In this document: positions 191-20,450 of the stretch, piece by piece | How positions within the stretch are numbered: the stretch's first letter is position 1 | How the letters are laid out: every line of letters starts with the position of its first letter | IMG/VR virus record: IMGVR_UViG_3300045988_136351 | Length of the DNA: 20,450 nucleotides | Reading direction: 5' to 3' (one strand) | Source: a virus | Translations under genes and position numbers: made by a program | The notes under the pieces: model-generated | Told to the model about the DNA's origin: nothing | The model's input: only the letters and a program-made list of their open reading frames with translations | The model's database searches: none

Positions 191-330
191 CACCACACCA
201 TACTACATAGCACATTATTACACATCACACCACACACCACACTACATTACACGCCACTACACAAGAATGTTCCACGTGAAACAATGACACACACGGCTCG
301 GTTGTGGATTATGTGAAATTACAAAAACAC

Positions 331-358
331 TTGTATTCTAGAATAGGTGTGCTATACT
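331..358 (+). promoter_or_regulatory. Early promoter inside the left ITR, reading inward
   Basis: -35 TTGTAT (331-336), 16-nt spacer, extended -10 TGcTATACT (350-358). The spacer contains the 10-bp palindrome ATTCTAGAAT (335-344). SD GAAGGAGGG and the ATG at 386 lie downstream. Confidence 0.6.
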
Positions 359-385
359 ATAGGTGAAAAGAAGGAGGGCTACAAC

Positions 386-628
386 ATGACTAAAGAAAAA
401 TATAAAGAGTACATTCAAAAACAATATGATTATGTACTAGAACAAATTAGTGGATGGCATGAGTCCGTTAATGTGTTAAAATCTTTATCTGATTATATTA
501 GTGATTGTATTGATATAACTGAGGGTATCTATAATGATAAAGATATCGATTTTCAATCTTACTCTGAATTAAGTGAAATGATTAATTACAAATTTAGAGA
601 AGTTTGTAGGATTGTAAAGAAGGGCTAG
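386..628 (+). CDS. Hypothetical early protein (80 aa), mildly acidic
   Basis: The track ORF 347..628 starts at a GTG with no SD. The ATG at 386 sits 6-7 nt after GAAGGAGGG. The first 10 nt of the CDS lie inside the ITR. Confidence 0.7.
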   Translation: MTKEKYKEYIQKQYDYVLEQISGWHESVNVLKSLSDYISDCIDITEGIYNDKDIDFQSYSELSEMINYKFREVCRIVKKG

Positions 629-1125: not shown

Positions 1126-1294
1126 TCCTATAACTTTTGAATTTTATTTTACATTTGATAATTTAATTGTGTTACATTCTACAGACTATCAATTTGTTCA
1201 AGATGTATATAATAATTATTATGAAAAGTATGGTGATAAACATACATATTATTTGTATACAGTGGCTAAATATGATTTAAAAATGAGAACTTAA
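1109..1294 (+). CDS. Hypothetical early protein (61 aa)
   Basis: SD AAGGTGG lies 6 nt before the ATG at 1109. The ORF ends in the bidirectional terminator. Confidence 0.6.
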   Translation: MLLVDNPITFEFYFTFDNLIVLHSTDYQFVQDVYNNYYEKYGDKHTYYLYTVAKYDLKMRT

Positions 1295-1319
1295 AAGAGT
1301 GCACTAATGGCACTCTTTT
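1293..1319. terminator. Bidirectional intrinsic terminator between the convergent operons
   Basis: 10-bp stem aaaagagtgc / gcactctttt with a 7-nt loop, and A/T runs on both sides. It lies between the stop at 1292-1294 (+) and the stop at 1323-1325 (-). Confidence 0.8.
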
Positions 1320-1322
1320 ATT

Positions 1323-2339
1323 TTAATATTTACTTAATATATAACTTAATAATCGTTTCGTTTCTTGGTTGTTGTAATACACGCAACCATCTCGATATGA
1401 TCGTATTAGCATGTTTAGTCTTTGGTCTTTACGCCATAATTTCGCGATCATCATATTTTCACGATTGTTACTTCCAATGGAATAACAATATCCGTATTCT
1501 TTGTTTATCTGTTGATTGATATATACATAGCCTGTATTCATATCTATCCAAACACCATAGTAAATATCATCATAGTATAATGTACATAAATAATTACATA
1601 CATTCGTTTTCTTTTTAATAAAGTCGTTTGTATCATATGCAAACTTACCAGCGTTATATTCTCCGTATGTAGTACCGGATATTAATTTATGAAATTTCGA
1701 TTTTTCTTTGTTTCCTTTTTTATATTCATTGTGACAGATTTGGACTACAATTTGCTCGACGGACTCACTACCTTTAAATGTATTAAATTCCTTATTGGGG
1801 TCGGGTGTGATACCAAAATAACTAAAATAAGGGTTAACGATACTTGCGTTATTTGCTAGTAAATATACATGTCCTTCTCGCTGTCTAAATATAGAGTCAA
1901 TAATATTTAATAATATTTCAACTTCATTCGGAATGTATGCGTTAAATCCTGCCTTTTCCGGTATAAACTCGTCAACAATAATTGTATCAATATCTACATA
2001 ACTTGTTGATTTTAAACTTGCAAACGCTGTTAGCGATGTTGCGTATCCCATCTCACAGCCATTGATATAAAAGGTGGTAAAATTACTACCACCTGTGATT
2101 TTAAATTCGTCATCTTTGAAATTTTCAAATTGATCGTTTAAAAATGTTTTGATTTTCTTTAGGTCTGTTTTGTAACGACGTAGATAAAGAAATTGTTTTC
2201 CTTTTTTCTTGTATCGACTGATACAGTCTTTTTTAAATCCATAGGTTTTACCAATTCCACGACCGCCAATGATGAAATTTAGAAATTTATTATATGACTT
2301 TATGTTGGTGGGACTGTACCAATCAATTGACTTTGTCAT
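1323..2339 (-). CDS. DNA encapsidation (packaging) ATPase, phi29 gp16-like
   Basis: Walker A GGRGIGKT and Walker B IIVDEF. The N-terminal string SYNKFLNFIIGGRGIGKTY...QFLYLRRYK parallels phi29 gp16 as I recall it. The start overlaps the lysin stop (ATGA). Confidence 0.93.
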   Translation of the reverse strand: MTKSIDWYSPTNIKSYNKFLNFIIGGRGIGKTYGFKKDCISRYKKKGKQFLYLRRYKTDLKKIKTFLNDQFENFKDDEFKITGGSNFTTFYINGCEMGYATSLTAFASLKSTSYVDIDTIIVDEFIPEKAGFNAYIPNEVEILLNIIDSIFRQREGHVYLLANNASIVNPYFSYFGITPDPNKEFNTFKGSESVEQIVVQICHNEYKKGNKEKSKFHKLISGTTYGEYNAGKFAYDTNDFIKKKTNVCNYLCTLYYDDIYYGVWIDMNTGYVYINQQINKEYGYCYSIGSNNRENMMIAKLWRKDQRLNMLIRSYRDGCVYYNNQETKRLLSYILSKY

Positions 2340-3792: not shown

Positions 3793-4734
3793 TTAATCAC
3801 CTTCTTTTTTAGTTGCTAAATCATCTTTAAAATCTGAAAGTTTTGTATCACCATTTAATTCAATCAATTTTAAAATATCCTCAAAGTCCTCATATGGTGC
3901 AAACTCAACACTCGCGTTTAAATTAAATTTCTTGTTTAATTCTTCAATCGCTTTTTTACGCTCACTAAGCCAAATATTACGAGACGCAATAACCTGTTGA
4001 TTGTTCGCGTTAACCTCATCCGCTACTAATCGCTCTTTTTTGTCCATGTTCGCATTTTCAATTCCTAATAAAGTCATGCACTCACGCAAAATTGCTTGTT
4101 TCATGCCGTGCAATTCATCCGCAATAAAAGGTGCATTTGTTTGTAGTACTTTAACGTCTTCCGTTCTAAATCCTTTTGAAGTAAAGATCGTTTGAACCCC
4201 TTGTAAAATCTTTTTTATAAACACTTTGAATTGTTGTAACATACGTTTATCACCTGTAATGATGTACGGCGTCCATTGCATGGTCAAATTTTGGTCCATT
4301 GTGCGACTCGTTAAAGCTAGTTTTTTAGCGAAAAAGTTTAAGTATGGAAAAATACCAACATATAAAGGACTGTTCTTCATAATAACACACTCTTCATTTG
4401 ATAAATTCTTTTTAACAAGTGGACTTGTTGAAACGGTATGATATTCGGTTGGCATTTGATAGTGGTTTAACTTACCGCCTAATGTGATTTCACTACAGAT
4501 TAAGCCTAACCTTTCATCATCATAAAAGCCAATGTAACCACGTGTTTGTAAAACATATTCTAAATAGAATGTATTAATGGACTCCGGCAAACCTTTATAT
4601 TTAAACATATTTAAACTCAACATTTGTAAATACGTATAATAAATAAAATCAGCCTCTCCATTATTCATCGTAGCAACATCTACCGCGTTCCTACAATAAT
4701 CTGTGAACGAACTTGTATTATTCAATAAATCCAT
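3793..4734 (-). CDS. Portal / upper collar connector protein, phi29 gp10-like
   Basis: YLQMLSLNMFKYKGLPESINTFYLE...GYIGFY and LGIENANMDKKERLVADEV parallel phi29 gp10 (LQSLAYQLFEWENLPPTIN...GYVGFY; LGIKNANLEKKERMVTDEV). The SD-supported ATG is at 4734; the track start is 4743. Confidence 0.9.
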   Translation of the reverse strand: MDLLNNTSSFTDYCRNAVDVATMNNGEADFIYYTYLQMLSLNMFKYKGLPESINTFYLEYVLQTRGYIGFYDDERLGLICSEITLGGKLNHYQMPTEYHTVSTSPLVKKNLSNEECVIMKNSPLYVGIFPYLNFFAKKLALTSRTMDQNLTMQWTPYIITGDKRMLQQFKVFIKKILQGVQTIFTSKGFRTEDVKVLQTNAPFIADELHGMKQAILRECMTLLGIENANMDKKERLVADEVNANNQQVIASRNIWLSERKKAIEELNKKFNLNASVEFAPYEDFEDILKLIELNGDTKLSDFKDDLATKKEGD

Positions 4735-4766
4735 TTTAATCATCTCCTTTTAATTATATATTAAAT

Positions 4767-4792
4767 AAAAAAGGTTGAACCGTCAACCTTTT
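4767..4792 (-). terminator. Intrinsic terminator after the tail-knob gene
   Basis: Stem aaggttga / tcaacctt with loop accg, followed by a T-run on the - strand. Confidence 0.7.
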
Positions 4793-4796
4793 CCAT

Positions 4797-8786: not shown

Positions 8787-9068
8787 CTAAACCTTTAAAA
8801 AAACATAATCAGAATAATAAGGTGCATTTGGTAAATAGCTAAAATTATAGTTAAAATAATAATCTAATTTTTTAATATTTTTATCTTTGCTTTCTGTCAA
8901 AACATAATAAGTTTGTCCATATTTATTAATTGAAACATTATTTTCAACGGTTTGTGTTGGTTCTGTGGTCCAAGGATAAATATTTTCGCTTGTGTCACTG
9001 TACTTTTGTTGGATTTCAACTAAATTAACTTTACCTGTACCGCTGTTGATAATAGGTTTTGTATCCAT
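8787..9068 (-). CDS. Hypothetical 93-aa ORF, possibly an internal fragment of a broken tailspike gene
   Basis: There is no recognisable SD before the ATG at 9068. It overlaps the end of ORF 9020..10165 in another frame. The beta-rich sequence IINSGTGKVNLVEI resembles a beta-helix rung. Confidence 0.4.
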   Translation of the reverse strand: MDTKPIINSGTGKVNLVEIQQKYSDTSENIYPWTTEPTQTVENNVSINKYGQTYYVLTESKDKNIKKLDYYFNYNFSYLPNAPYYSDYVFLKV

Positions 9069-10165
9069 AATATTGTTTTCAAGCCATAAACTACACTCAT
9101 TTTTGCATTAAAAATTGCATTCACTTTTAATGTTGAATATTTAATATTAACAGTTGGCAAAACCGTGTTATTTGTGCTATACACATCAACTAAATATTTA
9201 TTATTGTTTGAAATATCACAATTATTAAATGTTATTTGTTGTTTCTCCACACTACTTATATTCGGTAGAAGAAAGGTGTTTGCATTATCATAAGTACTAA
9301 TATAACAATTATTAAAATCAAAATTATCAAGCGAACCAAATAATTCAATTGTTCCATTCGGCTCAAATTTTGAGAAAGTGCAATTATTAAATATAAATTT
9401 ACCACCAATATATCCAGCGATAATACTAGTTCTTTGTTTATAGTCATCATCATAATAAAATAATGTTTTATTAATACTATAAACCACACCATTGAATTCA
9501 TTAGTGGCATTAATAAGTTGTGTATTTTGCAATTTACATTCATCTAATAATAAATGCTCTAGCGTGTTAGTTCTAGATGAGATATTATTAAATAAATAAT
9601 TAATATCAACAAAATTACAATGCTTAAATTGAGATGAAAAAAAGTTTTCAGTTAGCGGTAAATTACTTTGTACATCACGCCCAAATGCGATATTACTAAA
9701 CACACAATTTTTTATTTGTTTTGTAAACGTGTTGTTGCCTAATATAATCGTGCTATTAGTACCTATTATATTTGTATCACTAATATTCGTTAGAGTTCCA
9801 TTAATTAAATACATTTTATTACTTAATAAAATATATTTATGGTTTGCGTTTGCACTACCAAAACATTCAGTAAATGCCCTGCTATCATCCGTAACACCAT
9901 CACCTACAGCTCCAAAGTTTTCGGGTAATAAGAAAGGAAAATCATTATTTTTTGTTACTTCCTGCCATAGTGTGCTTTTAAAAGTTTCTAGATTCATGTT
10001 AACTAGATCCTCAACCGTTGTGTTTAATGTTGGTTGTAATTCGGTCCATTTTTCATCAAACTTAGTATTTGTTGTTGTTTGAGCCAGTTCAATAACTTGA
10101 GGTTTTAACTCTTCCCATTTTTCATTGAATGTTGTTGTATGATCGTAGGTTTTAATTTTTCCCAT
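9020..10165 (-). CDS. Tailspike / pre-neck-appendage-like protein, right-handed beta-helix (pectin-lyase fold) part
   Basis: ENFGAVGDGVTDDSRAF is the classic N-terminal motif of pectate-lyase-type beta-helix tailspikes, and N-rich rung-like repeats follow. The ATG at 10165 abuts GAGGA with zero spacing, which makes a poor RBS. The N-terminus continues the FNxxWExLKP repeat of the upstream ORF. Confidence 0.7.
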   Translation of the reverse strand: MGKIKTYDHTTTFNEKWEELKPQVIELAQTTTNTKFDEKWTELQPTLNTTVEDLVNMNLETFKSTLWQEVTKNNDFPFLLPENFGAVGDGVTDDSRAFTECFGSANANHKYILLSNKMYLINGTLTNISDTNIIGTNSTIILGNNTFTKQIKNCVFSNIAFGRDVQSNLPLTENFFSSQFKHCNFVDINYLFNNISSRTNTLEHLLLDECKLQNTQLINATNEFNGVVYSINKTLFYYDDDYKQRTSIIAGYIGGKFIFNNCTFSKFEPNGTIELFGSLDNFDFNNCYISTYDNANTFLLPNISSVEKQQITFNNCDISNNNKYLVDVYSTNNTVLPTVNIKYSTLKVNAIFNAKMSVVYGLKTILWIQNLLSTAVQVKLI

Positions 10166-10375
10166 TCCTCATTAAATTTATTAGTTGTTGTTTCTTCCAC
10201 TAATGTAATAACTTGTGGTTTTAAAATATCCCATTGTTTTTTAAATTCGGCGTCTGTTGTATCCTGTGCCAATTTAATAACAACCGGTTTTAAATCTTCC
10301 CATGCCTTATTGAATGTTTCAATTGTTAAATTTGTAACTAGTTCAATTACTTGAGGTTTTAGAATTGACCATTTA
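10032..10375 (-). repeat. Diverged 69-nt (23-aa) tandem repeat array spanning the 10105..10710 / 9020..10165 junction
   Basis: The Trp-codon anchor (CCAT on +) falls at 10045, 10114, 10161, 10230, 10299 and 10368. Spacings are 69, 47, 69, 69 and 69 nt. Confidence 0.85.
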
Positions 10376-10710
10376 TAGTCGAATTCCTCATCTGTCCATT
10401 CTTTCGTTGCTTGCTCTAATAATGGCACTACTGTATTCCATGCCTCAATTGTTTCATTCATAGCCGTTACGAGTGTATAAACGTACCCTTGTAAATAGTT
10501 TAAACATTGATAGACATTCATACCCGTATTGAATGCACTCACATATTGCTGAGCTAAATTCTTACCACTTAACTTTAAAGGCTCGAACTCCGGTAAAAAG
10601 TTATTGATCTCAAATTCTTCATGTAACTCTGAACCGGAAATACTTTCGCTTTCACTCGTCGATGTTTCACTTGAATTTAAAATATTTTGTTTTATTTTAT
10701 CAAAATCCAT
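10105..10710 (-). CDS. Fibre/tailspike N-terminal anchor plus repeat rod; paralog of 11826..12650 and truncated by a frameshift
   Basis: NFLPEFEPLKLSGKNLAQQYVSAFNTGMNVYQCLNYLQGY closely matches NFLPKFDEVKLSGKNLAQNYVSEFNTGMNIYQCLNYLQGY of the 274-aa protein. 23-aa repeats follow. The SD-supported ATG is at 10710; the track start is a GTG at 10719. Confidence 0.7.
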   Translation of the reverse strand: MDFDKIKQNILNSSETSTSESESISGSELHEEFEINNFLPEFEPLKLSGKNLAQQYVSAFNTGMNVYQCLNYLQGYVYTLVTAMNETIEAWNTVVPLLEQATKEWTDEEFDYKWSILKPQVIELVTNLTIETFNKAWEDLKPVVIKLAQDTTDAEFKKQWDILKPQVITLVEETTTNKFNEEWEKLKPTIIQQHSMKNGKS

Positions 10711-10711
10711 A

Positions 10712-11047
10712 CTATTCACCTTCTTTATATCCGATCAGTTCTTTTAGTTTATCCGGTAAGATATCACTATTGATTTTAGAAATGTTTTCGATAATACTAA
10801 CCACCTCTGTAATAATTGCATATGTACAAATAACCGGCACTAAATCAACTCCAAAAGGTAAAGTTAAATAAGTTTCCGCATAGTTAATAGCAATACCTAA
10901 AGTGTAACAAAAGATAAAGCCAACCTTTTTAAAAAGCCCGTCTCTTAATTTGTTCGATTTGATTTGTTCACCTTCTCGTAAAGCTCCAACGATACCTGTC
11001 ACCAAATCCAAACCATTAAAAACCAATGCTACTAAAATAATTTTCAT
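10712..11047 (-). CDS. Holin, three transmembrane segments (Phage_holin_4-like)
   Basis: MKIILVALVFNGLDLVTGIVGAL..., then GFIFCYTLGIAINY and LVPVICTYAIITEVVSII, with a charged C-terminus. SD AGAGGTGA lies 6 nt before the ATG at 11047; the track start is 11065. Confidence 0.8.
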   Translation of the reverse strand: MKIILVALVFNGLDLVTGIVGALREGEQIKSNKLRDGLFKKVGFIFCYTLGIAINYAETYLTLPFGVDLVPVICTYAIITEVVSIIENISKINSDILPDKLKELIGYKEGE

Positions 11048-11106: not shown

Positions 11107-11826
11107 CTAATTTCCTATTTTTCCTTGTCCTAACCATTTTCCATTTTTACGAATTCGGCTCGTACCTTGGTTTTCTTTTCCTACTTTATCATAACTATAT
11201 TTTGCTATATCCTTCCATGAGTTTGATTTTCGTATCTTTAAAAATCCACTGTCTTTATTCAATGATTTTAATACGCCACTTTTACGAATACCCCACGGTC
11301 TAAAGTCGGGAATAACTTGTTGAATACTGTAAATATTCGAGTGTGGAAAAGCTACATTCTCACCTTGTAATTCAATTTTAACGTGTGTAGTATCATTTGA
11401 TAATTGAATAAATTTACTCCACTGGCTCGCTCTTGCCGTACCATCCCATCCTTGCATATAGTTTAAAGGCATTTGTCCGGTATGCGTAAATATCTTTTCT
11501 CTTAATAATTGTGTCCATGTGGCTTGATTGTCTGTTGACTTAGAAACAATAATAAAATAGTTATATGTATCAGTAGTATCACCAACATAATAACCATCCG
11601 CCACATACTGCTGAGCGTCTGTTATAGCATATCCGACTAAATCTAAAATAAATGTTACACCATAATTTCCATTATCCGAGAAATTAATACCTTTACCATA
11701 TCCGGACGCGTGCGCTGTTGCTAATGGTGCTCCAAACGGTCCTGTGTTGTCCGGTGAGCCACCTAAAACAACATTTGCATACGGTCCGGTGTTATCAAAT
11801 GCACCATAAAAATATTGCCATGCCAT
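11107..11826 (-). CDS. Hypothetical structural protein (239 aa), candidate distal receptor-binding partner of the 274-aa fibre
   Basis: Its start overlaps the upstream stop (TAATG), implying translational coupling. It lies in the late structural block. The C-terminus has three IRK(S/N)(G/N) motifs. No family was recognised. Confidence 0.6.
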   Translation of the reverse strand: MAWQYFYGAFDNTGPYANVVLGGSPDNTGPFGAPLATAHASGYGKGINFSDNGNYGVTFILDLVGYAITDAQQYVADGYYVGDTTDTYNYFIIVSKSTDNQATWTQLLREKIFTHTGQMPLNYMQGWDGTARASQWSKFIQLSNDTTHVKIELQGENVAFPHSNIYSIQQVIPDFRPWGIRKSGVLKSLNKDSGFLKIRKSNSWKDIAKYSYDKVGKENQGTSRIRKNGKWLGQGKIGN

Positions 11827-12650
11827 TATACACCACCAGCCAAATCATTTTCACTAGTACCGTTATTTGTACGGATGTATGAACCGCCGTCAACACTTCC
11901 ACCAAAAATATTAATATTACCTGTAGCGATGTTTCTACCGTCTGTCATATGACCGTCAAAAATCGTATCACCCGTTTGTGTCCAAGCTCCACTATTCTTT
12001 AAGTTAGTTAACAAGATAGATAAATCGTCATACATTTTACCGATTTTAGAATCTTGATTATCAATATAATTATTAATAGTATTGTTAACATATTGCGTTA
12101 ACTCCGGTTTTAATTCTTCCCATGACTGGTTGAATTGATTGATTGTTGTTTGTTTCGTCAACTCAATCACTTGAGGTTTTAATTCTTCCCATGACTCATT
12201 GAATTGATTAATTGTTGTTTGTTTCGTTAGTTCAATAACTTGAGGTCTTAATTCTTCCCATTTCTCATTGAATTGATTAATCGTTGTTTGTTTTGTCAAC
12301 TCAATAACTTGTGGTTTTAATTCCGCCCAGTGCTTATCAAATTCACTTTTAGACAGTTCAATACAATATTTAATCATTTCCTCGATGTTTTTATTCCATT
12401 TTTTAACAACATCGTTAACAGCTTTAACCAGCCAACCAATATAACCTTGTAAATAATTTAAACATTGGTAAATATTCATACCCGTGTTAAATTCACTCAC
12501 ATAATTTTGAGCTAAATTTTTACCGCTTAATTTTACCTCGTCAAATTTCGGTAAAAAATTATCAATATCTATTTTGATTTCTTGGTTTTGCTCAAACTGT
12601 TCTTTGATTGTTTTACTTGCTGATTGTTTCTCTTTAGTTTTTCTTAACAT
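11826..12650 (-). CDS. Fibre protein with conserved N-terminal anchor domain and a 23-aa repeat rod
   Basis: Strong SD GAAGGTGGTGA. Repeat units are near-identical (WEELRPQVIELTKQTTINQFNE...). The N-terminal domain is paralogous to that of 10105..10710. It occupies the phi29 head-fibre/appendage position after the capsid gene. Confidence 0.7.
   Translation of the reverse strand: MLRKTKEKQSASKTIKEQFEQNQEIKIDIDNFLPKFDEVKLSGKNLAQNYVSEFNTGMNIYQCLNYLQGYIGWLVKAVNDVVKKWNKNIEEMIKYCIELSKSEFDKHWAELKPQVIELTKQTTINQFNEKWEELRPQVIELTKQTTINQFNESWEELKPQVIELTKQTTINQFNQSWEELKPELTQYVNNTINNYIDNQDSKIGKMYDDLSILLTNLKNSGAWTQTGDTIFDGHMTDGRNIATGNINIFGGSVDGGSYIRTNNGTSENDLAGGV
12106..12335 (-). repeat. Near-identical 69-nt tandem repeats (about 3.3 copies) inside the fibre gene
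   Basis: The anchor CCCAT/CCCAG on + falls at 12119, 12188, 12257 and 12326, exactly 69 nt apart. Units are mostly identical at nucleotide level. Confidence 0.9.
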
Positions 12651-12805: not shown

Positions 12806-14155
12806 CTATACGTTATATACAACCTTAATATCACAAGTTACCTCGGAAACTGTATCTTTAATTGTTACAGTTGCTAAACCTTCCGCGTCAATAGCCTCTA
12901 AACATTCAATTTTAACGTGTTTCAAATCGCTTTCGATTGTAGCTTTAACTTTATCATCAACACTAGATGTAGCCGTCAAACTATACTTAGCATTTAAACC
13001 ACTTGTCTGAACTGTAAATGGTACGGTAATAGTCGCACCTTTACGAACTTCAACAACTTGTGGGTTTGAGTAAATAGCTGTAACTTTTTCCTCAACATTT
13101 CCGGATACAAACGCAATCGCATTTGCAAAACGGCTTGTTGCGATACCTTCCCAGTGGTGCAAGAAGTAATTCCAATATAATCCTTTAGCATTATACGCAA
13201 CACCTACGCTATATTTTTGGTCAAATACTCTATAAATTTCTGAATCACACACAATTGCCTCAATAGTACCTTGTGCCGTGCTTGGTAAAGTCGGTAGCAC
13301 TAATACATGAGTTTTGAATTGTGCAAACTCTAATTGGAATGTCTGAGCTAACCAATCAATATTTAAGTAGCTATTTGTTTTACCGTTTAGGATGACATAA
13401 ATATCATCGTATTCGTTTTGCTTTGTGACAGCCATAGCGTTATATTCGTTTGTTGGTTCTGTTAAATAAGATACGTATTCTGTAATTTTACGCGCTAACT
13501 CTTTCGCTGTATCCGTATCTGTTACGGCGTTCGTATTTACGATCTTCATATGTCCATTTTCATAATGAGTGACTAAAGCGGATTTCATATAATTATAATC
13601 ATCCTTATTATCACCATTATACATAGAATCAACAATTCGAGCAATCAAACTGTTTACACCATCCCAAGTTACAAAATACTTTCTTAAATCATCATCTGTA
13701 ATTGTAGCTGGATAGTATGACTTTCTGTTTACTACATAGAAAGCTGTTTTAATGTCTGGTAAACTTCTCTTAAAAAGAGTGTTTTCCGCGTCCGCCTGAT
13801 CGTATGCGTGCTCTTTAGCGCACTCAACGAAATACTCTTCCATAGTATAACCTAAAGGCATGTTCTCCATTTTAAATGGCGCTAGTTTGTTCGTTAAAAT
13901 ATTACGGTGTGCAATCACTTTACCAATACGTGTAGCTAAATTCATGAACTCAACACCTAAAGTATCCGGATATTCTAATAAACCGTTCATGAACTCTAAA
14001 GAGCTTGTTTCGTTTGGGTCACTAATTGTACTTCTAAAATTGCTAGAACTCATTGCGTACATAGCACTGGCGACTTCTTGACCGGTTGGTTCATGGTCCA
14101 TACCTAAGTCATTTTGTAACGTTTTAGTTACGTCTTTTCCTGTTGTTTTTGACAT
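12806..14155 (-). CDS. Major capsid protein, phi29 gp8-like, with a C-terminal Ig-like (BIG2-type) domain
   Basis: GLYWNYFLHHWEGIATSRFANAIAFVSGNV parallels phi29 gp8 [30 protein letters not shown]. At 449 aa it is nearly the same length. The beta-rich C-terminal 90 aa are typical of BIG2 domains. Confidence 0.93.
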   Translation of the reverse strand: MSKTTGKDVTKTLQNDLGMDHEPTGQEVASAMYAMSSSNFRSTISDPNETSSLEFMNGLLEYPDTLGVEFMNLATRIGKVIAHRNILTNKLAPFKMENMPLGYTMEEYFVECAKEHAYDQADAENTLFKRSLPDIKTAFYVVNRKSYYPATITDDDLRKYFVTWDGVNSLIARIVDSMYNGDNKDDYNYMKSALVTHYENGHMKIVNTNAVTDTDTAKELARKITEYVSYLTEPTNEYNAMAVTKQNEYDDIYVILNGKTNSYLNIDWLAQTFQLEFAQFKTHVLVLPTLPSTAQGTIEAIVCDSEIYRVFDQKYSVGVAYNAKGLYWNYFLHHWEGIATSRFANAIAFVSGNVEEKVTAIYSNPQVVEVRKGATITVPFTVQTSGLNAKYSLTATSSVDDKVKATIESDLKHVKIECLEAIDAEGLATVTIKDTVSEVTCDIKVVYNV

Positions 14156-14172: not shown

Positions 14173-14448
14173 TTAAATACCTAATTTTCTTAAATCCATT
14201 GGCGCTTCATGTTTTGGTTTTTCTCCGCCGGATTTTTCAACGCCAATTTGCATAAATAGTTTAGAGTTTGCCTCTGTTAATGAGGTATTCTTTTCAACTA
14301 ATTTTGTATTTTCAGCTTTTAAATTGTCCAATTCTGTATAAGTTTTTTCAACCTCCGCTCGCATGTCATTTAGCATGGTTGAGCGCTCCGCTTGGTCTTC
14401 AACTGTCAATACTTCCGTAAACTTGTTTCTAAGTTCATCACGTTCCAT
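14173..14448 (-). CDS. Scaffolding protein, phi29 gp7-like
   Basis: 91-aa coiled-coil protein directly upstream of the capsid gene. ANSKLFMQIGV parallels phi29 gp7 SNSKLFRQIGL. Confidence 0.85.
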   Translation of the reverse strand: MERDELRNKFTEVLTVEDQAERSTMLNDMRAEVEKTYTELDNLKAENTKLVEKNTSLTEANSKLFMQIGVEKSGGEKPKHEAPMDLRKLGI

Positions 14449-14473: not shown

Positions 14474-14502
14474 AATATATGCTAATAATATTTTAAAGTC
14501 AA
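14474..14502 (-). promoter_or_regulatory. Candidate late promoter upstream of the scaffold gene
   Basis: On the - strand: -35 TTGACT (14502-14497), 17-nt spacer, -10 TATATT (14479-14474). It lies immediately downstream of the terminator at 14511..14534. Confidence 0.45.
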
Positions 14503-14504
14503 TA

Positions 14505-14658
14505 AAAAATAAAACCCTCTTTTACGAGGGTTTTAAAAATATAGGTTGTAAAGTTTAAAGTGTTACCAGCTAGATTACTATTACTAATTATGTTGCTAGC
14601 ACGTTTCACCGCGAGTAAACCTAACATACATGTCTGATTTCCGTTCTTTATTCCTTAC
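14505..14658 (-). ncRNA. Non-coding RNA of about 150 nt with its own promoter and terminator; candidate prohead/packaging RNA (pRNA)
   Basis: No ORF is present. A near-consensus promoter lies just upstream and a terminator at the 3' end. A predicted 5'/3' helix pairs GUAAGGAAUAAAG (14658-14646) with CUUUAAACUUUAC (14560-14548), giving 11 of 13 pairs. Internal stacked hairpins are also predicted. All phi29-like phages need a pRNA and none is otherwise accounted for here. Confidence 0.5.
14511..14534 (-). terminator. Intrinsic terminator closing the ncRNA unit
   Basis: Stem aaaaccctc / gagggtttt with a 6-nt loop, followed on the - strand by ATTTTTTATT. Confidence 0.8.
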
Positions 14659-14664
14659 GGTCAT

Positions 14665-14693
14665 ATAATACCATGTTATTTACTTTTTGCCAA
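14665..14693 (-). promoter_or_regulatory. Strong sigma-A-type promoter driving the ncRNA unit
   Basis: On the - strand: -35 TTGGCA (14693-14688), 17-nt spacer ending in TGg, -10 TATTAT (14670-14665). It overlaps the 3' end of ORF 14676..14897. Confidence 0.65.
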
Positions 14694-14897
14694 ATCTTCT
14701 TTAACTTTATCTTTAACAAATTGACTAAACTTTTTCTTTTTCAATAAATCTTCAATATAATCAACGACTTCAACTTCATTTTTATTGACACAAACACAGT
14801 ATTTATTAACATGATCTCGATACCATTTATTTCGATTTTCTTTTGACTTCTCACTCAACATTGTCATCACATCCTTTTTCATCATCTTCTTTTTCAT
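14676..14897 (-). CDS. Small basic protein (73 aa or shorter), possible DNA-binding regulator
   Basis: Lys-rich N-terminus followed by a strand-helix-helix-like pattern (KYCVCVNK..EVVDYIEDL..FSQFVKDKVKEDL). It is the last early gene before the early/late boundary. Several in-frame ATGs make the start uncertain. Confidence 0.55.
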   Translation of the reverse strand: MKKKMMKKDVMTMLSEKSKENRNKWYRDHVNKYCVCVNKNEVEVVDYIEDLLKKKKFSQFVKDKVKEDLAKSK

Positions 14898-15438: not shown

Positions 15439-17265
15439 TTATCTACTTTTAATACTGAATTGTCTATCGACTAATACAATACCACCAGGAACATGTGTTT
15501 TCTTTAAGCAATCATTAATTACATTTCCAACTCTAAAATTATCATATGTTACATTCTGTTTAGCTTTTTGCGTCATACCAGCGCACTTTACATTCAAATA
15601 ATAACAAACACCCTCACGGATATAATACAAATTATCTTTACAGTCGTTTTCACTAATAAATTCTTGTTGGTGCTCTACATATTCCTTATAACTGATTTCG
15701 ATTTCTTCCACATAGGATTTAGCACCAATAAAATAAGATCGTGTAAACACTGATTCTAAACCCCAATAACCTAATTCCTTATCGTCAATAATATCTTTAA
15801 TAGCGTCCGGAACTTGTGTACCTACTAAATGTATTGAATCCGTATCAATATATGCGACTCTATGGATACCTACTTTTTGCGCGGTACTAATTGTATATTT
15901 ACGCGCGTATGCTGTTACAAATTCACCGTAAGGTAAATAAATAGGATCCCTAAATTGTTCGTCAATAACCTCTTTCACTTCTCCATCTTCATAAGTAGTA
16001 AACATAGGATCGTGAAGTCTTAATACGCCATCATCTTTATCAATAAATGGAATTTTAGGTGTAATATTTGGGTTCGTTGCGAACTTGCCGTAAACTGAAT
16101 TTAATTGTCTTTTGGCAATAAAACGTTGTGCACCTTTTGAGTTTTTCTTAACTTCCATTTGTTCATCTATAAATTGCCGTGCAATTCCTACACATCCTCT
16201 AAATTTATAGCCATTAATGAACTCTACATCATAAATATCATATTGTTCATTAAATAACTGCCAATCAACACTCGTAACAGTCATTCTAACGATATCACCG
16301 TTTGAACTATCTACGTATTTTTTACTACCAAAAAATCGACTAAACTTATCTAAGCTAATGCATGGTATATGATCTTTTTTAATGTCAAAAGCAAAACTAA
16401 CAACACCTACCCATAGTGGATATTCATCATCCTGTTGGTATTCACCTTCAAAATATATAGGTGTATCATACGGCAATAATTCATAATACATACGACTCGG
16501 AAAAAGTGAATTTACGTCAAATACTATCCCTTGTCCTATCTCTTTTTCTTTTAGTTCCGGGTTTGCCCAAACGAAACCGCCACTATAAGCCGGTCTTAAA
16601 TCACTATCCACACTCATTTCTAAAGGTGGGAATATCTTTTCAAAACTCATAGACAGTGTTTTCTTGAAAGCCTCAAAACTACAGCTTGTGGCTGTCATTT
16701 TATTAAATCCAAGCTTAAAACATTCATTCAATGCCATACCTTCAATGTCGATATCATTAAAAAGATAATCCACCTCATGTGGTGTTAGCTTGTGTCCTAT
16801 TTCACGTTTAGCCTTATAATCTAATTTCAATTTACGTATTGGTAAATTAAAATCATGTGCGATCTTCTCAATACTAAATGGGATTAATTTAAAGCTATCC
16901 CATATTGTAGTTTTTGTTGACCGATAAATTGAGTACTTCCACCATATTTCAATAGAGTACCACAAACCAGTATTAGAGATTATTGTTTTAAAACACCCGG
17001 TTTTAGGCTTGTCCGAATATTCATAACCATTTGATAATAACCAACTAACAATAAACTCACCATCAAAAGCAAGATTATGAAAATATAATTTACGTGTTTT
17101 CTGTTGACACCACTCAAAAAAACCATATATAGAATTTCCATATTCTTTTATACTTAAATCACTTACCAGGCTAGCGCCCCAAGCCCATACCCTACAGTCT
17201 AAAGGGTCGGTTGTAGTCTCAAAGTCGCACGCCCAAATTTCTTTGGGCTCTTTTTTCTTTGTCAT
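15439..17265 (-). CDS. Protein-primed family B DNA polymerase, phi29 gp2-like
   Basis: Exo I DFETTT, Exo II HNLAFDGEF, Exo III YLFNDIDI, motif A DVNSLFPS, motif B KRQLNSVYGKFA, motif C YIDTDSIH, and KCAGM. SD AAGGGGGT. Confidence 0.97.
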   Translation of the reverse strand: MTKKKEPKEIWACDFETTTDPLDCRVWAWGASLVSDLSIKEYGNSIYGFFEWCQQKTRKLYFHNLAFDGEFIVSWLLSNGYEYSDKPKTGCFKTIISNTGLWYSIEIWWKYSIYRSTKTTIWDSFKLIPFSIEKIAHDFNLPIRKLKLDYKAKREIGHKLTPHEVDYLFNDIDIEGMALNECFKLGFNKMTATSCSFEAFKKTLSMSFEKIFPPLEMSVDSDLRPAYSGGFVWANPELKEKEIGQGIVFDVNSLFPSRMYYELLPYDTPIYFEGEYQQDDEYPLWVGVVSFAFDIKKDHIPCISLDKFSRFFGSKKYVDSSNGDIVRMTVTSVDWQLFNEQYDIYDVEFINGYKFRGCVGIARQFIDEQMEVKKNSKGAQRFIAKRQLNSVYGKFATNPNITPKIPFIDKDDGVLRLHDPMFTTYEDGEVKEVIDEQFRDPIYLPYGEFVTAYARKYTISTAQKVGIHRVAYIDTDSIHLVGTQVPDAIKDIIDDKELGYWGLESVFTRSYFIGAKSYVEEIEISYKEYVEHQQEFISENDCKDNLYYIREGVCYYLNVKCAGMTQKAKQNVTYDNFRVGNVINDCLKKTHVPGGIVLVDRQFSIKSR

Positions 17266-17283: not shown

Positions 17284-18117
17284 TTATTTATATCTAACCA
17301 TACCGTCACTAACATAAGCACGTCCGGTAAACACAGCTAAACTATCTTTTACATCGCTTAAATCTTCTCTTATAGCTTTACTTAATTGCTCGTTTACAAA
17401 TTTCTGGTTTTCTGTGTATTCACGGCTTAAATCCAGGTATTTAAAAGTATCTATCGCTTTTCGTTCTTGATACAACCATTTTAATAATTCTTTATCTGAT
17501 AATGATCTCATGTCTTTTAAAATTTGTTGCCCTTCTTCCTCTGTTATATTGTGCCCTCGTATTTGTTTTTCTATAGCTGTTTTATAATTCTCTCGAAACG
17601 TAGTAATTTTCTTATTTTTCTTTTTCGTATTTTCCTTTAGGCTTTCAATCCTATTTTTTAATTGTTTAGGATATCTATACGATTGGATATTAACATGATG
17701 AACCGGCTCAAAAAAACCGCCTCTATCATCTTTTAATACTGATAAAGCCTGTCGGACTGAAATATTTGTTGATATACCGCCCTTTGTTTCTTTCAAATTA
17801 TTTAGCCCAACACTACGAACTAACTTTTTTCTTTGTTTGTTCTGTTTATCCACTAACTTATTAGCCTGCTCGATGTCGTTACGGTTAAACACAACACCAT
17901 ACCGATTTTTTATATATCTATTTTCTTTGTTGAATTTTTCAATTGATTTTAAGTATTTATTAAATTCCTTACGATCTTTAAAATCTTTTATAGAACGAAT
18001 GTCATTAAAAACAACATCCTGCCCTAAATTTTGCGCTTTTGTAGCAGTTCGTTTAGCACTTGCTATAGCATTTCTAAGTCGTTTTACATCTTTCGTACTT
18101 TTTCGCATTTTAGCCAT
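17284..18117 (-). CDS. Terminal protein (replication primer), phi29 gp3-like
   Basis: Lies directly upstream of the polymerase and is basic. FKDRKEFNKYLKSIEKFNKENRYIKNRYGVV parallels phi29 TP FETRAQFNKWKEQASSFTNRANMRYQFEKNAYGVV. The SD-supported ATG is at 18117; the track start is a GTG at 18126. Confidence 0.88.
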   Translation of the reverse strand: MAKMRKSTKDVKRLRNAIASAKRTATKAQNLGQDVVFNDIRSIKDFKDRKEFNKYLKSIEKFNKENRYIKNRYGVVFNRNDIEQANKLVDKQNKQRKKLVRSVGLNNLKETKGGISTNISVRQALSVLKDDRGGFFEPVHHVNIQSYRYPKQLKNRIESLKENTKKKNKKITTFRENYKTAIEKQIRGHNITEEEGQQILKDMRSLSDKELLKWLYQERKAIDTFKYLDLSREYTENQKFVNEQLSKAIREDLSDVKDSLAVFTGRAYVSDGMVRYK

Positions 18118-18146
18118 TTTAAACACCCCCTTTTAAGCCAAAATAA

Positions 18147-18169
18147 AAGGGTGTTTGGCTAACACCCTT
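18147..18169 (-). terminator. Intrinsic terminator or attenuator between the SSB and terminal-protein genes
   Basis: 9-bp stem aagggtgtt / aacaccctt with a 5-nt loop, and T-rich sequence downstream on the - strand. Confidence 0.65.
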
Positions 18170-18180
18170 ATTTTATTAGG

Positions 18181-18582
18181 CTATTTTACAGCCATGCTTA
18201 AATATTTATTCGTGCTTGAGTTTGATTTTTTCTGAATGATTGTCACACATACCGGTTCTTTTGTCCAATCATAGTTAAATACTTGTTTAAGTTGCTTTAA
18301 TGATTGCAAGAAAGGTTTACTATTTGTAGCATATGCTTTACCTTCTTTATCAATTACAGTGATTAGTTTACTACAAATAATCTCACCTGTTTTATCATTT
18401 TCCTTTTCTACATCTTGCACGATGTAACCCGTCAAATACAAGTCCTTACCTACTTGATCGCTTAGACCTTCCGCATTATTTACCGCGTTGAATAAGTTAA
18501 CGCGTTGCTCGTGAGTCATGTCCTCAGTTACAACCAAACCTGTGTTTTCCATTGCCATTACTTCATTTCCTAAATTTTCCAT
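18181..18582 (-). CDS. Single-stranded DNA-binding protein, phi29 gp5-like
   Basis: The MEN.. start, LFNAVNN, ITVIDKEGKAYATNSK..L..L and VTIIQKKSNSSTNKYLSM align in order with phi29 p5 (IFNAQTG, TTIFAADGSLYSAISK, VKVVQGTSSKGNVFFSL). Position and size (133 aa) also match. Strong SD AAAGGAG. Confidence 0.7.
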   Translation of the reverse strand: MENLGNEVMAMENTGLVVTEDMTHEQRVNLFNAVNNAEGLSDQVGKDLYLTGYIVQDVEKENDKTGEIICSKLITVIDKEGKAYATNSKPFLQSLKQLKQVFNYDWTKEPVCVTIIQKKSNSSTNKYLSMAVK

Positions 18583-19792: not shown

Positions 19793-20065
19793 TTATAAGA
19801 AAATAAATTCACCACTAGCATACTTAAGTAATTCATCTGATAGATCAGCAAACTGTAAAACTAAATAATCAAAATCACTAACTGTAATATCTTCGTCTTT
19901 TAAAGTGTTAAGTATAATAATGTGCATTGAATTAATATAATTAGCAATTAACACATTTTTAAATTCATCTTCATCCACAACCTTAATGGACTCTATAGCA
20001 TTATTGTAAATATTTAATAACACTCCTTCATACACTTCCCTTAATGTCATTTCAACTTTAGTCAT
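19793..20065 (-). CDS. Hypothetical first early protein (90 aa), strongly acidic
   Basis: The ATG at 20065 follows the ITR-encoded SD. The track N-terminal extension MCYTIGEKKEGYN is the translated 5'UTR. I count 17 D/E against 6 K/R. Confidence 0.7.
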   Translation of the reverse strand: MTKVEMTLREVYEGVLLNIYNNAIESIKVVDEDEFKNVLIANYINSMHIIILNTLKDEDITVSDFDYLVLQFADLSDELLKYASGEFIFL

Positions 20066-20092
20066 GTTGTAGCCCTCCTTCTTTTCACCTAT

Positions 20093-20120
20093 AGTATAGC
20101 ACACCTATTCTAGAATACAA
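20093..20120 (-). promoter_or_regulatory. Identical early promoter inside the right ITR, reading inward
   Basis: Mirror image of 331..358. It precedes the long - strand early operon. Confidence 0.6.
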
Positions 20121-20260
20121 GTGTTTTTGTAATTTCACATAATCCACAACCGAGCCGTGTGTGTCATTGTTTCACGTGGAACATTCTTGTGTAGTGGCGT
20201 GTAATGTAGTGTGGTGTGTGGTGTGATGTGTAATAATGTGCTATGTAGTATGGTGTGGTG

Positions 20261-20340
20261 AGGTGAGTCGAACAGAGTGAGACTACACCGAGCGGAGCGA
20301 GTCCAAGGTGAGCGGAGCGAACCAACACCGAGCGGAGCGA
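20261..20340 (-). repeat. Mirror copy of the 20-bp phased repeat array in the right ITR
   Basis: Reverse complement of 111..190 (gagcggagcga cores at 20-bp spacing). Confidence 0.9.
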
Positions 20341-20450
20341 GGCGGTGTTGTATTGTGTTAGTTAGTGTTAACTAATATTATCCTATGTGTGTTCGTGTTC
20401 TGTGAACATGTGTGCGCCAATGGGGAACATGGTTATGCTGACACTACACA

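What the first reader, a model, noticed from the sequence alone, without database searches (positions are those of the whole stretch)
14505..14693. Self-contained promoter-to-terminator unit of about 150 nt with no ORF at the early/late boundary: candidate pRNA (or late-operon leader)
The 227-nt gap between the last early ORF and the scaffold gene holds the best promoter I can see in the genome. On the - strand it reads TTGGCA, a 17-nt spacer with TG, then TATTAT. About 150 nt with no ORF follow, ending in a clean terminator (aaaaccctc/gagggtttt plus a U-run). The predicted 5' end GUAAGGAAUAAAG can pair with CUUUAAACUUUAC about 100 nt downstream (11 of 13 pairs), resembling the 5'/3' A-helix of the phi29 pRNA. 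Inside that helix, UAUGUU(AG) pairs with (CU)..AACAUA and stacks on a GUUUAC..GUGAAAC hairpin whose loop holds a self-complementary CGCG. The string CAUGUAUGUUAGG resembles CAUGUGUAUGUUGGGG of the phi29 pRNA as I remember it. phi29-type packaging motors need a pRNA, and phi29 encodes its pRNA near a genome end, so this location would be different. An alternative reading is a leader plus conditional terminator that controls read-through into the late genes.
Basis: partly seen in the sequence, partly recalled or inferred. Interest (0 to 1): 0.8.

Follow-up and report, generated by a model that had tools for sequence, protein, structure and literature searches.

The report
Divergent prohead (packaging) RNA gene
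The 227-base gap between the early and late genes of this small gut phage encodes a strongly diverged relative of the phi29 packaging RNA (pRNA), an RNA so far described only in phages of Bacillus and close relatives.

Summary
The unit is real. On the minus strand, an extended -10 promoter (14693-14665) is followed by a conserved 111-nt structured core (14658-14548), an intrinsic terminator (14534-14504) and a second promoter for the scaffold gene.

All 80 related contigs keep it. It is as conserved as second codon positions, and 17 base pairs show compensatory changes.

The fold has the phi29 pRNA layout:
- a helix that closes the two ends
- a three-way junction
- a long arm with a 7-nt one-sided bulge followed by a 4-bp hairpin with a 6-nt loop
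- a second hairpin

The 3' end of the bulge (UUACU) is complementary to the second hairpin loop (AGUAA). This pairing is re-invented with different sequences in 15 lineages, phi29 included.

Rfam's pRNA model misses the window. A model built only from an intermediate phage clade hits both the window RNA (55 bits) and authentic phi29 pRNA (51 bits).

Its inner hairpin (GUUUAC/GUGAAAC with a CGCG loop) is wrong.

Verdict: a divergent pRNA at a new genomic position, in a human-gut phage. Its role in packaging is inferred, not shown.

The parts
14665..14693 (-). Sigma-70-type promoter of the RNA gene: -35 TTGGCA (14693-14688), 17-nt spacer, TG (14673-14672), -10 TATTAT (14670-14665). The -35 overlaps the end of the upstream 73-aa ORF.
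   Evidence: Promoter scan. The -10 and TG are kept in relatives. The 6 nt between the -10 and +1 are the least conserved stretch (majority fraction 0.57).
14548..14658 (-). Structured core of the RNA (111 nt), equivalent to pRNA domain I. The predicted 5' end is G14658.
   Evidence: Conservation starts sharply at 14658. The core majority fraction is 0.937, against 0.77-0.81 at third codon positions. In the named structure 99.4% of cells are paired, against 34-47% in slid controls. R1 scores 137 bits and hits only here in the window. R3 scores 55.4 bits.
14634..14658 (-). 5' strand of the A-helix equivalent: P1a GUAAGG (14658-14653), P1b UAAAG (14650-14646), internal loop AACGGAA (14645-14639), P2 AUCAG (14638-14634).
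   Evidence: Pairs with 14548-14569. Compensatory changes occur in P1a, P1b and P2.
14548..14569 (-). 3' strand of the A-helix equivalent: P2 CUGGU (14569-14565), loop AACA, P1b CUUUA (14560-14556), P1a CUUUAC (14553-14548).
14590..14631 (-). C/E arm: P3 AUG/CAU, P4 UGUUAG/CUAGCA, a one-sided bulge, P5 CGCG/CGUG and the hexaloop GUGAAA (14609-14604).
   Evidence: P4 has four pairs with 14-35 double changes each. P5 has two pairs with 6 and 11 double changes.
14614..14620 (-). CE-loop equivalent: the 7-nt bulge GUUUACU on the 5' side only. Its 3' part UUACU (14618-14614) is the proposed kissing segment.
   Evidence: It is complementary to AGUAA in the D-like loop. UACU/AGUA is kept in the main clade with one G-U wobble (L067). 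The pairing is replaced by UUUUC/GAAAA, GCAU/AUGC, GUAU/AUAC and UUCAUU/AAUGAA in other lineages.
14571..14586 (-). D-hairpin equivalent: UAG/CUA stem with the 10-nt loop UAAUAGUAAU. AGUAA (14579-14575) is the partner of the bulge.
   Evidence: The stem is invariant, so the stem itself is not proven by covariation.
14504..14547 (-). 13-nt linker, then an intrinsic terminator (AAAACCCUC GUAAAA GAGGGUUUU) and a U tract. This is the predicted 3' end of a roughly 150-155-nt transcript.
   Evidence: Terminator scan. The stem is kept in relatives, with 2 pairs showing compensatory changes.
14474..14502 (-). Second promoter (TTGACT, 17 nt, TATATT) for the late operon, which starts with the scaffold gene at 14448.
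   Evidence: It is conserved in relatives.
1323..2339 (-). gp16-type DNA-encapsidation ATPase, the expected protein partner of the A helix.
   Evidence: Pfam PF05894, E = 3.7e-73. It is 36-38% identical to phi29/B103 gp16 over 94-98% of its length.
3793..4743 (-). phi29-type upper collar connector (portal), the expected docking site of the RNA ring.
   Evidence: phrog_2038, E = 7.6e-68.

Best explanation
The region is a stand-alone gene for a prohead/packaging RNA (pRNA) that is homologous to the phi29 pRNA but strongly diverged.

Inferred from sequence signals: transcription starts at about G14658 from an extended -10 promoter. It stops at the intrinsic terminator, giving an RNA of roughly 150 nt.

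Shown by comparative analysis: the 111-nt core folds into a helix that joins the 5' and 3' ends and a three-way junction. One long arm has a 7-nt bulge on one side, directly followed by a 4-bp hairpin with a 6-nt loop. A short second hairpin carries a 10-nt loop. The last five bases of the bulge (UUACU) are complementary to AGUAA in the second hairpin loop, and this complementarity is kept by co-ordinated changes in other lineages.

Inferred by homology with phi29: this pairing forms between neighbouring RNA molecules and closes them into a ring on the portal vertex of the empty prohead. The distal end of the end-joining helix docks the gp16-type ATPase (1323-2339). The ATPase then pumps the terminal-protein-capped genome into the head, and the RNA is released afterwards.

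The gene sits between the early (replication) genes and the late (structural) operon instead of at a genome end. Its terminator probably also ends early transcription.
For: Context:
- The window is a complete 20.45-kb genome with 395-bp inverted terminal repeats.
- It encodes protein-primed PolB, terminal protein, scaffold, capsid, connector and gp16 ATPase.

Reality of the element:
- It is present in 80 of 80 related contigs.
- The core is as conserved as second codon positions, with a sharp boundary at +1.

Structure:
- 99.4% of cells are paired, against 34-47% in slid controls.
- 17 pairs carry double changes. Shuffles reach the observed value in 0 of 500 trials on four of the five measures; the count of further pair types did not exceed shuffles.

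Topology, element by element, against the Rfam consensus of the phi29 pRNA:
- one-sided bulge: 7 nt here, 9 nt in phi29
- 4-bp hairpin with a 6-nt loop in both
- 3-nt linker to the second hairpin in both

Loop-loop pairing:
- In 15 lineages the longest Watson-Crick run between bulge and hairpin loop is 3-6 bp.
- It is flush with the 3' end of the bulge in 14 of 15, as with phi29 AACC.
- Random re-pairing of bulges and loops reached the observed sum in 0 of 20000 trials, and shuffled loops in 0 of 20000.

Homology chain:
- R1, built from the window clade only, recovers the exact RNA interval in L221 (26.6 bits) and in 7 of 7 further loci of that clade (14-30 bits; top hit in 6).
- Rfam RF00044 hits three of those same intervals at 44-49 bits, E = 6e-8 to 1.3e-6.
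- R3, built only from six RNAs of that clade, hits the window at 14546-14660 with 55.4 bits (E = 1e-10) and the phi29 pRNA at 202-322 with 50.7 bits (E = 2e-9). The next best hits score about 15 bits.
- In that clade the RNA lies at the canonical pRNA position, the left genome end behind a strong promoter.
Against: - Rfam's curated pRNA model gives no hit on the window, even when only 241 nt are searched at E <= 10.
- The core is not more stable than shuffled sequence (z = -0.36). The consensus structure (-13.8 kcal/mol) is less stable than the MFE fold (-18.5 kcal/mol).
- The D-like stem has only 3 invariant pairs, so it has no covariation support of its own.
- The R3 alignment was made with a model (R2) that included window-clade sequences. 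The shared structure annotation is therefore not independent, although the sequences in R3 are.
- Model E-values are rough because of the short calibration.
- No expression, prohead-binding or packaging data exist.
- Whether the bulge-loop pairing is inter- or intramolecular cannot be read from sequence.
Confidence: 0.85

Rival explanations
1. The RNA is a leader with a conditional terminator (attenuator). It controls read-through from early transcription into the late structural operon.
For: It lies at the early/late boundary and ends in a strong intrinsic terminator directly upstream of the scaffold gene.
Against: - A separate, conserved promoter (14502-14474) follows the terminator.
- No alternative anti-terminator pairing is conserved.
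- Homologous RNAs occur at a genome end antisense to the late genes, and between PolB and the ATPase gene. The structure is therefore not tied to the late operon.
- A three-way junction with covarying loop-loop pairing is not needed for attenuation.
Confidence: 0.04
2. The RNA is a pRNA homologue or look-alike whose bulge-loop pairing forms within one molecule, as a pseudoknot. It would act as a monomer, either as a scaffold for the ATPase without ring closure or as a regulatory or decoy RNA unrelated to packaging.
For: Sequence covariation cannot distinguish cis from trans pairing. The D-like arm differs from phi29: a 3-bp stem with a 10-nt loop, against 6 bp with a 5-nt loop. This could change its reach.
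Against: The paired segments occupy the same positions as in phi29. In phi29, trans pairing was shown genetically (PMC12670572, PMC5066667). The arm lengths between the junction and the bulge are similar, at about 9-10 stacked layers. The motor proteins are of the phi29 type.
Confidence: 0.1
3. The region encodes a small protein, and the RNA structure is incidental. Candidates are the 42-aa ORF 14499-14627(-) and the 22-aa ORF 14596-14664(-).
For: ORFs of 22-42 aa overlap the region.
Against: - Changes come in compensatory pairs across helices, not in a 3-nt period.
- Indels of 1-2 nt occur within the core in relatives.
- The region matches covariance models of a non-coding RNA.
- No ribosome-binding site was noted upstream of these ORFs.
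Confidence: 0.01

Closest known systems
phi29 prohead/packaging RNA (pRNA; Rfam RF00044, '3WJ core of Phi29 bacteriophage pRNA')
   Same: - The order of elements is the same: an end-joining A helix with internal loops, a three-way junction, a C helix, a one-sided CE bulge whose 3' bases pair with the D loop, a 4-bp E helix with a 6-nt loop, a 3-nt linker and a D hairpin.
- It has its own promoter.
- A 3' extension lies beyond the functional core.
- It is encoded by a protein-primed phage with a gp16 ATPase and a gp10-type connector.
- One intermediate model hits both RNAs.
   Different: - The Rfam model gives no hit.
- The gene lies mid-genome, between the early and late genes and on the same strand as both. 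In phi29 it lies at the left end, antisense to the late genes.
- The kissing duplex is 5-6 bp and A/U-rich with one G-C pair (UUACU/AGUAA). Known pRNAs use a GG/CC-based duplex of 2-4 bp (PMC12670572).
- The D stem is 3 bp with a 10-nt loop.
- The E loop is GUGAAA, not UUGAGU.
- The habitat is the human gut and the likely host is a Clostridia member, not a Bacillus.
Divergent pRNAs of uncultured phages related to Bacillus cereus-group phi29-likes (the L221 clade found here; MCP 51% identical to DK1, Juan and Goe4-type phages)
   Same: All three models built here recognise them. They share the 5' GUAAGG/GUGAGA...CUUUAC closing helix and the same element lengths. One member (L274) also has the gene just upstream of scaffold and MCP, as in the window.
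   Different: Most members keep the phi29 position at the left end. Their E loop is UUGAGU, UUGAUU or UUGAAU, as in phi29. Their kissing duplex is 3 bp (AUC/GAU, ACC/GGU or ACU/AGU). They are detectable by RF00044 at sub-threshold scores.
Unannotated pRNA-like RNA of cultured Clostridium phage CI55P2 (OP172760.1, 4709-4815)
   Same: It infects a host outside Bacillus. It has the same architecture in a plain MFE fold, and a 5-bp bulge/loop complementarity (UACCA/UGGUA) flush with the E-like hairpin.
   Different: It lies between the DNA polymerase and packaging ATPase genes. No sequence similarity to the window RNA was detected. It has a 5-bp E-like stem with a 4-nt loop.

Membership tests
phi29-type pRNA (Rfam RF00044) | Scores at or above the curated gathering threshold (100 bits) of the Rfam covariance model | tested here: not met
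   No RF00044 hit on the whole window at gathering or at E <= 10, nor on 14480-14720 alone. Positive control: phi29 scores 145 bits.
phi29-type pRNA (Rfam RF00044) | Detectable homology to authentic pRNAs by profile search, direct or transitive | tested here: met
   R3, built from six intermediate-clade RNAs only, scores 55.4 bits (E = 1e-10) on the window and 50.7 bits (E = 2e-9) on the phi29 pRNA. RF00044 hits three intermediate-clade RNAs at E = 6e-8 to 1.3e-6. R1, built from the window clade only, finds the intermediate-clade RNAs in L221 and in 7 of 7 further loci.
phi29-type pRNA (Rfam RF00044) | Secondary structure: A helix pairing the 5' and 3' ends, a three-way junction, a C-E arm and a D hairpin | tested here: met
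   RNAalifold consensus. 99.4% of cells are paired and 17 pairs have compensatory changes. The layout matches the Rfam consensus structure element by element. The 3-bp D stem is invariant, so it is not itself supported by covariation.
phi29-type pRNA (Rfam RF00044) | Complementarity between the CE (right-hand) bulge and the D (left-hand) loop, maintained by covariation | tested here: met
   UUACU/AGUAA in the window. Different complementary pairs occur in 14 other lineages, flush with the E helix in 14 of 15. Random re-pairings reach the observed sum in 0 of 20000 trials.
phi29-type pRNA (Rfam RF00044) | The loop-loop pairing is intermolecular and closes a ring on the prohead | not testable with these tools
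   This needs trans-complementation of loop mutants, native gels or cryo-EM.
phi29-type pRNA (Rfam RF00044) | Encoded by a phage with a gp16-type ATPase, a gp10-type connector and protein-primed replication | tested here: met
   PF05894, E = 3.7e-73. phrog_2038 connector, phrog_1907 PolB and phrog_6358 terminal protein. 395-bp terminal inverted repeats.
phi29-type pRNA (Rfam RF00044) | Independent transcription unit giving a small RNA of roughly 120-174 nt | tested here: inconclusive
   A consensus promoter and an intrinsic terminator predict about 150-155 nt, and conservation starts at the predicted +1. No transcript data are available.
phi29-type pRNA (Rfam RF00044) | Gene at the left genome end, downstream of the leftward early operon | tested here: not met
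   The gene is at 14.5 kb of 20.45 kb, co-directional with both early and late genes. Position varies among homologues, so it is a habit of the Bacillus phages rather than a defining feature.
phi29-type pRNA (Rfam RF00044) | Required for DNA packaging; binds proheads; absent from mature virions | not testable with these tools
   This needs biochemistry on a cultured representative.
Transcription attenuator / leader of the late operon | Terminator in series with the regulated genes, with no intervening promoter, and mutually exclusive alternative pairings | tested here: not met
   A conserved promoter lies between the terminator and the scaffold gene. No conserved anti-terminator was found. Homologues occur at unrelated loci.

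The most novel reading that the evidence does not exclude
RNA-dependent packaging motors may not be a peculiarity of Bacillus phages. They may be ancestral to, and widespread among, phi29-like phages, including abundant human-gut clades and cultured Clostridium phages. In this reading the pRNA gene moves freely around the genome (genome end, early/late boundary, next to the ATPase gene). The bulge-loop 'kissing code' diversifies quickly, which would keep RNA rings of co-infecting relatives from mixing.
Probability: 0.55. Interest if true: 0.75.

Novelty: new variant of a known kind. Interest (0 to 1): 0.62.

Why it matters
Reviews from 2016 and 2024 call the pRNA unique to phi29 and related Bacillus phages (PMC5066667, PMC11476376). 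A 2025 Infernal survey seeded with phi29, GA1 and DLc1 added only phages of Bacillus-type hosts (PMC12670572).

This finding extends the RNA to an abundant, uncultured human-gut phage group that the curated model cannot see.
- **Gene position.** It shows that the position of the pRNA gene is not fixed.
- **Natural pairing variants.** It supplies about 15 naturally occurring, mutually distinct bulge/loop pairings. These bear on the origin of the RNA component of this motor, on ring assembly and its specificity, and on pRNA-based RNA nanotechnology.
- **A testable system.** It points to a cultured non-Bacillus phage (Clostridium phage CI55P2) in which RNA dependence of packaging could be tested.
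- **Annotation.** Phage annotation pipelines that rely on RF00044 will miss these genes.

Tried and rejected
- **Rfam scans.** I scanned the whole window at gathering and at E <= 10, and the region alone. There were no pRNA hits, only chance-level matches.
- **Close annotated relatives.** Megablast of the whole window against GenBank phages found nothing.
- **The search for homologous proteins with the capsid protein.** It listed only close relatives and gave no new lineages.
- **P0122 (46% MCP) in viral contigs.** No relatives were found.
- **DNA-pattern scan of viral contigs.** It returned mostly the same contigs plus a few chance hits.
- **R1, R2 and R3 on other genomes.** R1 was run on Cp-1 and on L179. 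R1 and R2 were run on phi29. R2 and R3 were run on Cp-1, L179 and about 55 diverse uncultured picovirus loci.
  - R1 and R2 do not reach phi29. Only R3 does.
  - No model hits Cp-1. MFE folds of its two candidate gaps show no pRNA layout.
  - Most of the diverse loci gave nothing. Either they lack the RNA or it is too diverged.
Both were tested against covariation and rejected.
- **Single-sequence thermodynamics.** It gives no support for the core, so I did not use it as evidence.
- **A sixth kissing pair inside the main clade (bulge position 2 with loop position 6).** It is present in only about half of the sequences, so I do not claim it.
Full report
**What the window is.** The 20,450-base window is a complete linear phage genome with perfect 395-bp inverted terminal repeats and 32.5% G+C. 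On the minus strand it encodes, in order:
- small early genes, an SSB-like protein (18181-18582), a terminal protein (17284-18126) and a protein-primed DNA polymerase (15439-17265);
- two small ORFs;
- the late genes: scaffold (14173-14448), major capsid protein (12806-14155), tail and lysis genes, connector (3793-4743) and a gp16-type encapsidation ATPase (1323-2339).

It has no close relative among GenBank phages. Its capsid protein is about 33% identical, and its ATPase 36-38% identical, to those of Bacillus phi29-type phages. A 98%-identical capsid gene lies on a 20.1-kb contig binned into a human-gut Clostridia MAG. Many related contigs come from human-associated metagenomes. The habitat is therefore the human gut. 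The host is only hinted at.

**Checking the observation.**
- The promoter is TTGGCA, 17 nt with TG, then TATTAT (14693-14665).
- The terminator spans 14535-14504.
- The outer helix GUAAGG..UAAAG / CUUUA..CUUUAC has 11 pairs.

A second promoter (TTGACT, 17 nt, TATATT; 14502-14474) follows the terminator, so the unit is self-contained. Small ORFs of 22-42 aa overlap the region, but nothing suggests they are coding.

**Conservation.** All 80 related viral contigs fetched through the capsid gene keep the element. Identity is 82-98% in 78 of them and about 70% in two. Conservation begins exactly at the predicted +1, G14658.
- The six bases between the -10 and +1 have a majority fraction of 0.57.
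- The 111-nt core has 0.937. That equals second codon positions of the flanking genes (0.93-0.94) and exceeds third positions (0.77-0.81).

**Structure.** RNAalifold on 78 distinct sequences gives the following elements:
- P1a 14658-14653 / 14553-14548
- P1b 14650-14646 / 14560-14556
- an internal loop (AACGGAA / AACA)
- P2 AUCAG/CUGGU
- a junction
- P3 AUG/CAU
- P4 UGUUAG/CUAGCA
- a 7-nt bulge GUUUACU on the 5' side only
- P5 CGCG/CGUG with the loop GUGAAA
- a 3-nt linker
- a small hairpin, UAG-(10 nt)-CUA (coordinates)

Counting pairs on the named structure gives 99.4% of cells paired, against 34-47% when partners are slid. Seventeen pairs carry changes on both sides, against a shuffled mean of 5.6. 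Shuffles reach the observed value in 0 of 500 trials on four of the five measures; the count of further pair types did not exceed shuffles. P4 alone has four pairs with 14-35 double changes each.

Single-sequence energy gives no support. The core has z = -0.36, and the consensus fold (-13.8 kcal/mol) is less stable than the MFE fold (-18.5 kcal/mol). The case rests on comparison, not on thermodynamics.

**Loop-loop pairing.** The last five bases of the bulge (UUACU, 14618-14614) are complementary to AGUAA (14579-14575) in the small hairpin loop. More distant relatives, found through capsid representatives and covariance models, have different sequences at both sites that stay complementary:

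| Lineage | Bulge / loop pairing |
|---|---|
| L025, L020 | UUUUC/GAAAA |
| L171, L172 | GCAU/AUGC |
| L173 | UGCAU/AUGCA |
| L174 | GUAU/AUAC |
| L176, L177 | UUCAUU/AAUGAA |
| L254 | UAAUCA/UGAUUA |
| L258 | UGUA/UACA |
| L216 | GUCA/UGAC |
| L221-related clade | AUC/GAU, ACC/GGU, ACU/AGU |

In 14 of 15 lineages the complementary run ends at the last base of the bulge, next to the following hairpin. This is where phi29's AACC lies relative to its E helix. The summed run length was never reached by 20000 random re-pairings of bulges and loops, nor by 20000 loop shuffles (a smaller version). Bulges and loops were delimited by hand from model alignments and MFE folds, which is a weakness of this test.

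**Comparison with phi29.** Rfam's model finds the phi29 pRNA at 145 bits, and its consensus structure can be laid beside the window's.

| Element | Window | phi29 |
|---|---|---|
| End-joining helix with internal loops | yes | yes |
| Three-way junction | yes | yes |
| Long arm with a one-sided bulge | 7 nt | 9 nt |
| Hairpin following the bulge | 4 bp, 6-nt loop | 4 bp, 6-nt loop |
| Linker to the second hairpin | 3 nt | 3 nt |
| Second hairpin pairing with the bulge | yes | yes |

The same Rfam model nevertheless gives nothing on the window. A model built from the window clade (R1) gives nothing on phi29.

**The bridge between the two.** R1 hit one locus among 56 diverse uncultured picoviruses: L221, 272-388(-), at 26.6 bits.
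- L221 has the phi29 gene layout, with early genes leftward and late genes rightward. The hit lies at the left genome end, directly behind a TTGATA-17-TGgTATAAT promoter. This is the canonical pRNA position.
- Its capsid protein is 51% identical to those of Bacillus cereus-group phi29-like phages.
- With filters off, R1 recovers the corresponding interval in all seven further members of that clade tested (14-30 bits). It is the top hit in six of them.
- Rfam RF00044 hits three of those same intervals at 44-49 bits, E = 6e-8 to 1.3e-6. That is below its 100-bit threshold but far above noise. Their hairpin loops read UUGAGU, UUGAUU or UUGAAU, like phi29's UUGAGU.
- A model built only from six RNAs of this clade (R3) hits the window at 14546-14660 with 55.4 bits (E = 1e-10) and the phi29 pRNA at 202-322 with 50.7 bits (E = 2e-9). 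It also hits the other window-type lineages at 26-47 bits. The next best matches score about 15 bits.

Two caveats apply. The R3 alignment was produced with model R2, whose training set included window-clade sequences, so the structure line is shared. E-values from these shortened calibrations are rough. The R1 and Rfam links are independent of that alignment.

**Where the gene sits.** Position varies among relatives:
- at the left end, antisense to the late genes (L221, L267, L269, L280, L283, L288, L301);
- just upstream of scaffold and capsid (the window clade, L171-L177, L274);
- between the polymerase and a roughly 325-aa ORF (L254, L216);
- antisense, just downstream of the polymerase gene (L258).

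This argues against any role tied to the late operon.

**Mechanism.**
- Shown: a conserved, structured, non-coding element with the pRNA fold and covarying bulge-loop complementarity, in a genome with phi29-type motor proteins.
- Inferred from signals: transcription from the extended -10 promoter at about G14658 and termination at 14504-14510, giving about 150-155 nt. The terminator hairpin would be a dispensable 3' extension, as domain II is in phi29.
- Inferred by homology: intermolecular bulge-loop pairing closes a ring on the prohead portal, and the end-joining helix docks the ATPase. Conserved unpaired purines in the AACGGAA internal loop are candidate protein contacts.
- Open: the number of subunits in the ring, whether the pairing acts in trans, and whether early read-through transcripts also yield the RNA.

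**Rivals.** I rate an attenuator or leader at about 0.04, because of the conserved downstream promoter and the homologues elsewhere in genomes. A monomeric pseudoknotted RNA with another role is about 0.1; sequence alone cannot exclude it. A small protein gene is about 0.01.

**Novelty.** The 2016 and 2024 reviews state that pRNA is known only from phi29 and related Bacillus phages (PMC5066667, PMC11476376). A 2025 Infernal survey added 12 pRNAs, all seeded from phi29, GA1 and DLc1, and all from phages of Bacillus-type hosts, including Cytobacillus. It notes that known kissing pairs are built on GG/CC (PMC12670572). Full-text searches found no report of pRNAs in gut or Clostridia phages.

The window RNA is thus a divergent variant of a known kind.
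- It is invisible to the curated model.
- It sits at a new genomic position.
- Its kissing duplex is A/U-rich and 5-6 bp long.
- Its D stem is short and carries a long loop.
- It comes from a different habitat and a likely different host group.

**A lead found in passing.** In cultured Clostridium phage CI55P2, the unannotated 150-nt gap between the polymerase and packaging ATPase genes folds into the same architecture in a plain MFE fold. A 5-bp UACCA/UGGUA complementarity sits flush with the hairpin. It offers an experimental system.

Noticed in passing
window 1-395 and 20056-20450: A perfect 395-bp inverted terminal repeat, so the window is a complete linear genome. The first ORFs at the two ends (347-628 + and 19793-20104 -) share the N-terminus MCYTIGEKKEGYNMTK, because their starts lie inside the repeat.
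   Followed up: partly
L306 (Clostridium phage CI55P2, OP172760.1) 4709-4815 (+): The unannotated 150-nt gap between the DNA polymerase and DNA packaging protein genes of a cultured Clostridium phage folds into a pRNA-like three-way junction. The bulge AUACCA and the hairpin loop CUGGUAA give a 5-bp UACCA/UGGUA pairing. This rests on a single-sequence fold only (z = -1.9).
   Followed up: partly
L254 4774-4885 (+), L216 3781-3897 (+), L258 4081-4199 (-): Further pRNA-model hits (R3, 25-41 bits) in other uncultured gut picovirus lineages. They lie next to the polymerase gene and a roughly 325-350-aa ORF (an ATPase by size and position, not checked). Each has its own complementary bulge/loop pair.
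   Followed up: partly
L274 4651-4767 (+) versus L221/L267/L280 left ends (-): Within one capsid clade (63-82% identity), the pRNA gene is at the genome end in most members but just upstream of the scaffold gene in L274. The gene has therefore moved recently.
   Followed up: partly
window 11826-12650, 10105-10719, 9020-10165 (all -): Three neighbouring late genes carry copies of a repeated motif of about 22 aa (W-E/A-E-L-K-P-Q-V-I-E-L-...-T-T-x-N-x-F). This suggests a shared, repeated N-terminal module in head-fibre or appendage proteins.
   Followed up: no
window 14676-14897 (-): A 73-aa ORF whose stop codon lies inside the pRNA promoter. It is conserved in relatives (motif KWYRD.V.KYCV.VNK) and has no family match. 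It could be a small DNA-binding or late-switch protein.
   Followed up: no
L267 13281-13395 (+): A second, weaker hit of the window-clade model R1 (22.7 bits, E = 0.03), far from the left-end pRNA. It may be a chance match or a second copy.
   Followed up: no
L184 (Streptococcus phage Cp-1) 4684-4875: Cp-1 has the same gene order as the window. Two annotated late promoters lie 95 nt apart, between an early terminator and the scaffold gene. No model hit and no pRNA-like fold were found there.
   Followed up: partly
window 1292-1320 and 18147-18169: Hairpins with terminator-like runs on both strands. The first lies between the convergent ATPase gene and the right-end genes. The second lies after the SSB-like gene.
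   Followed up: no
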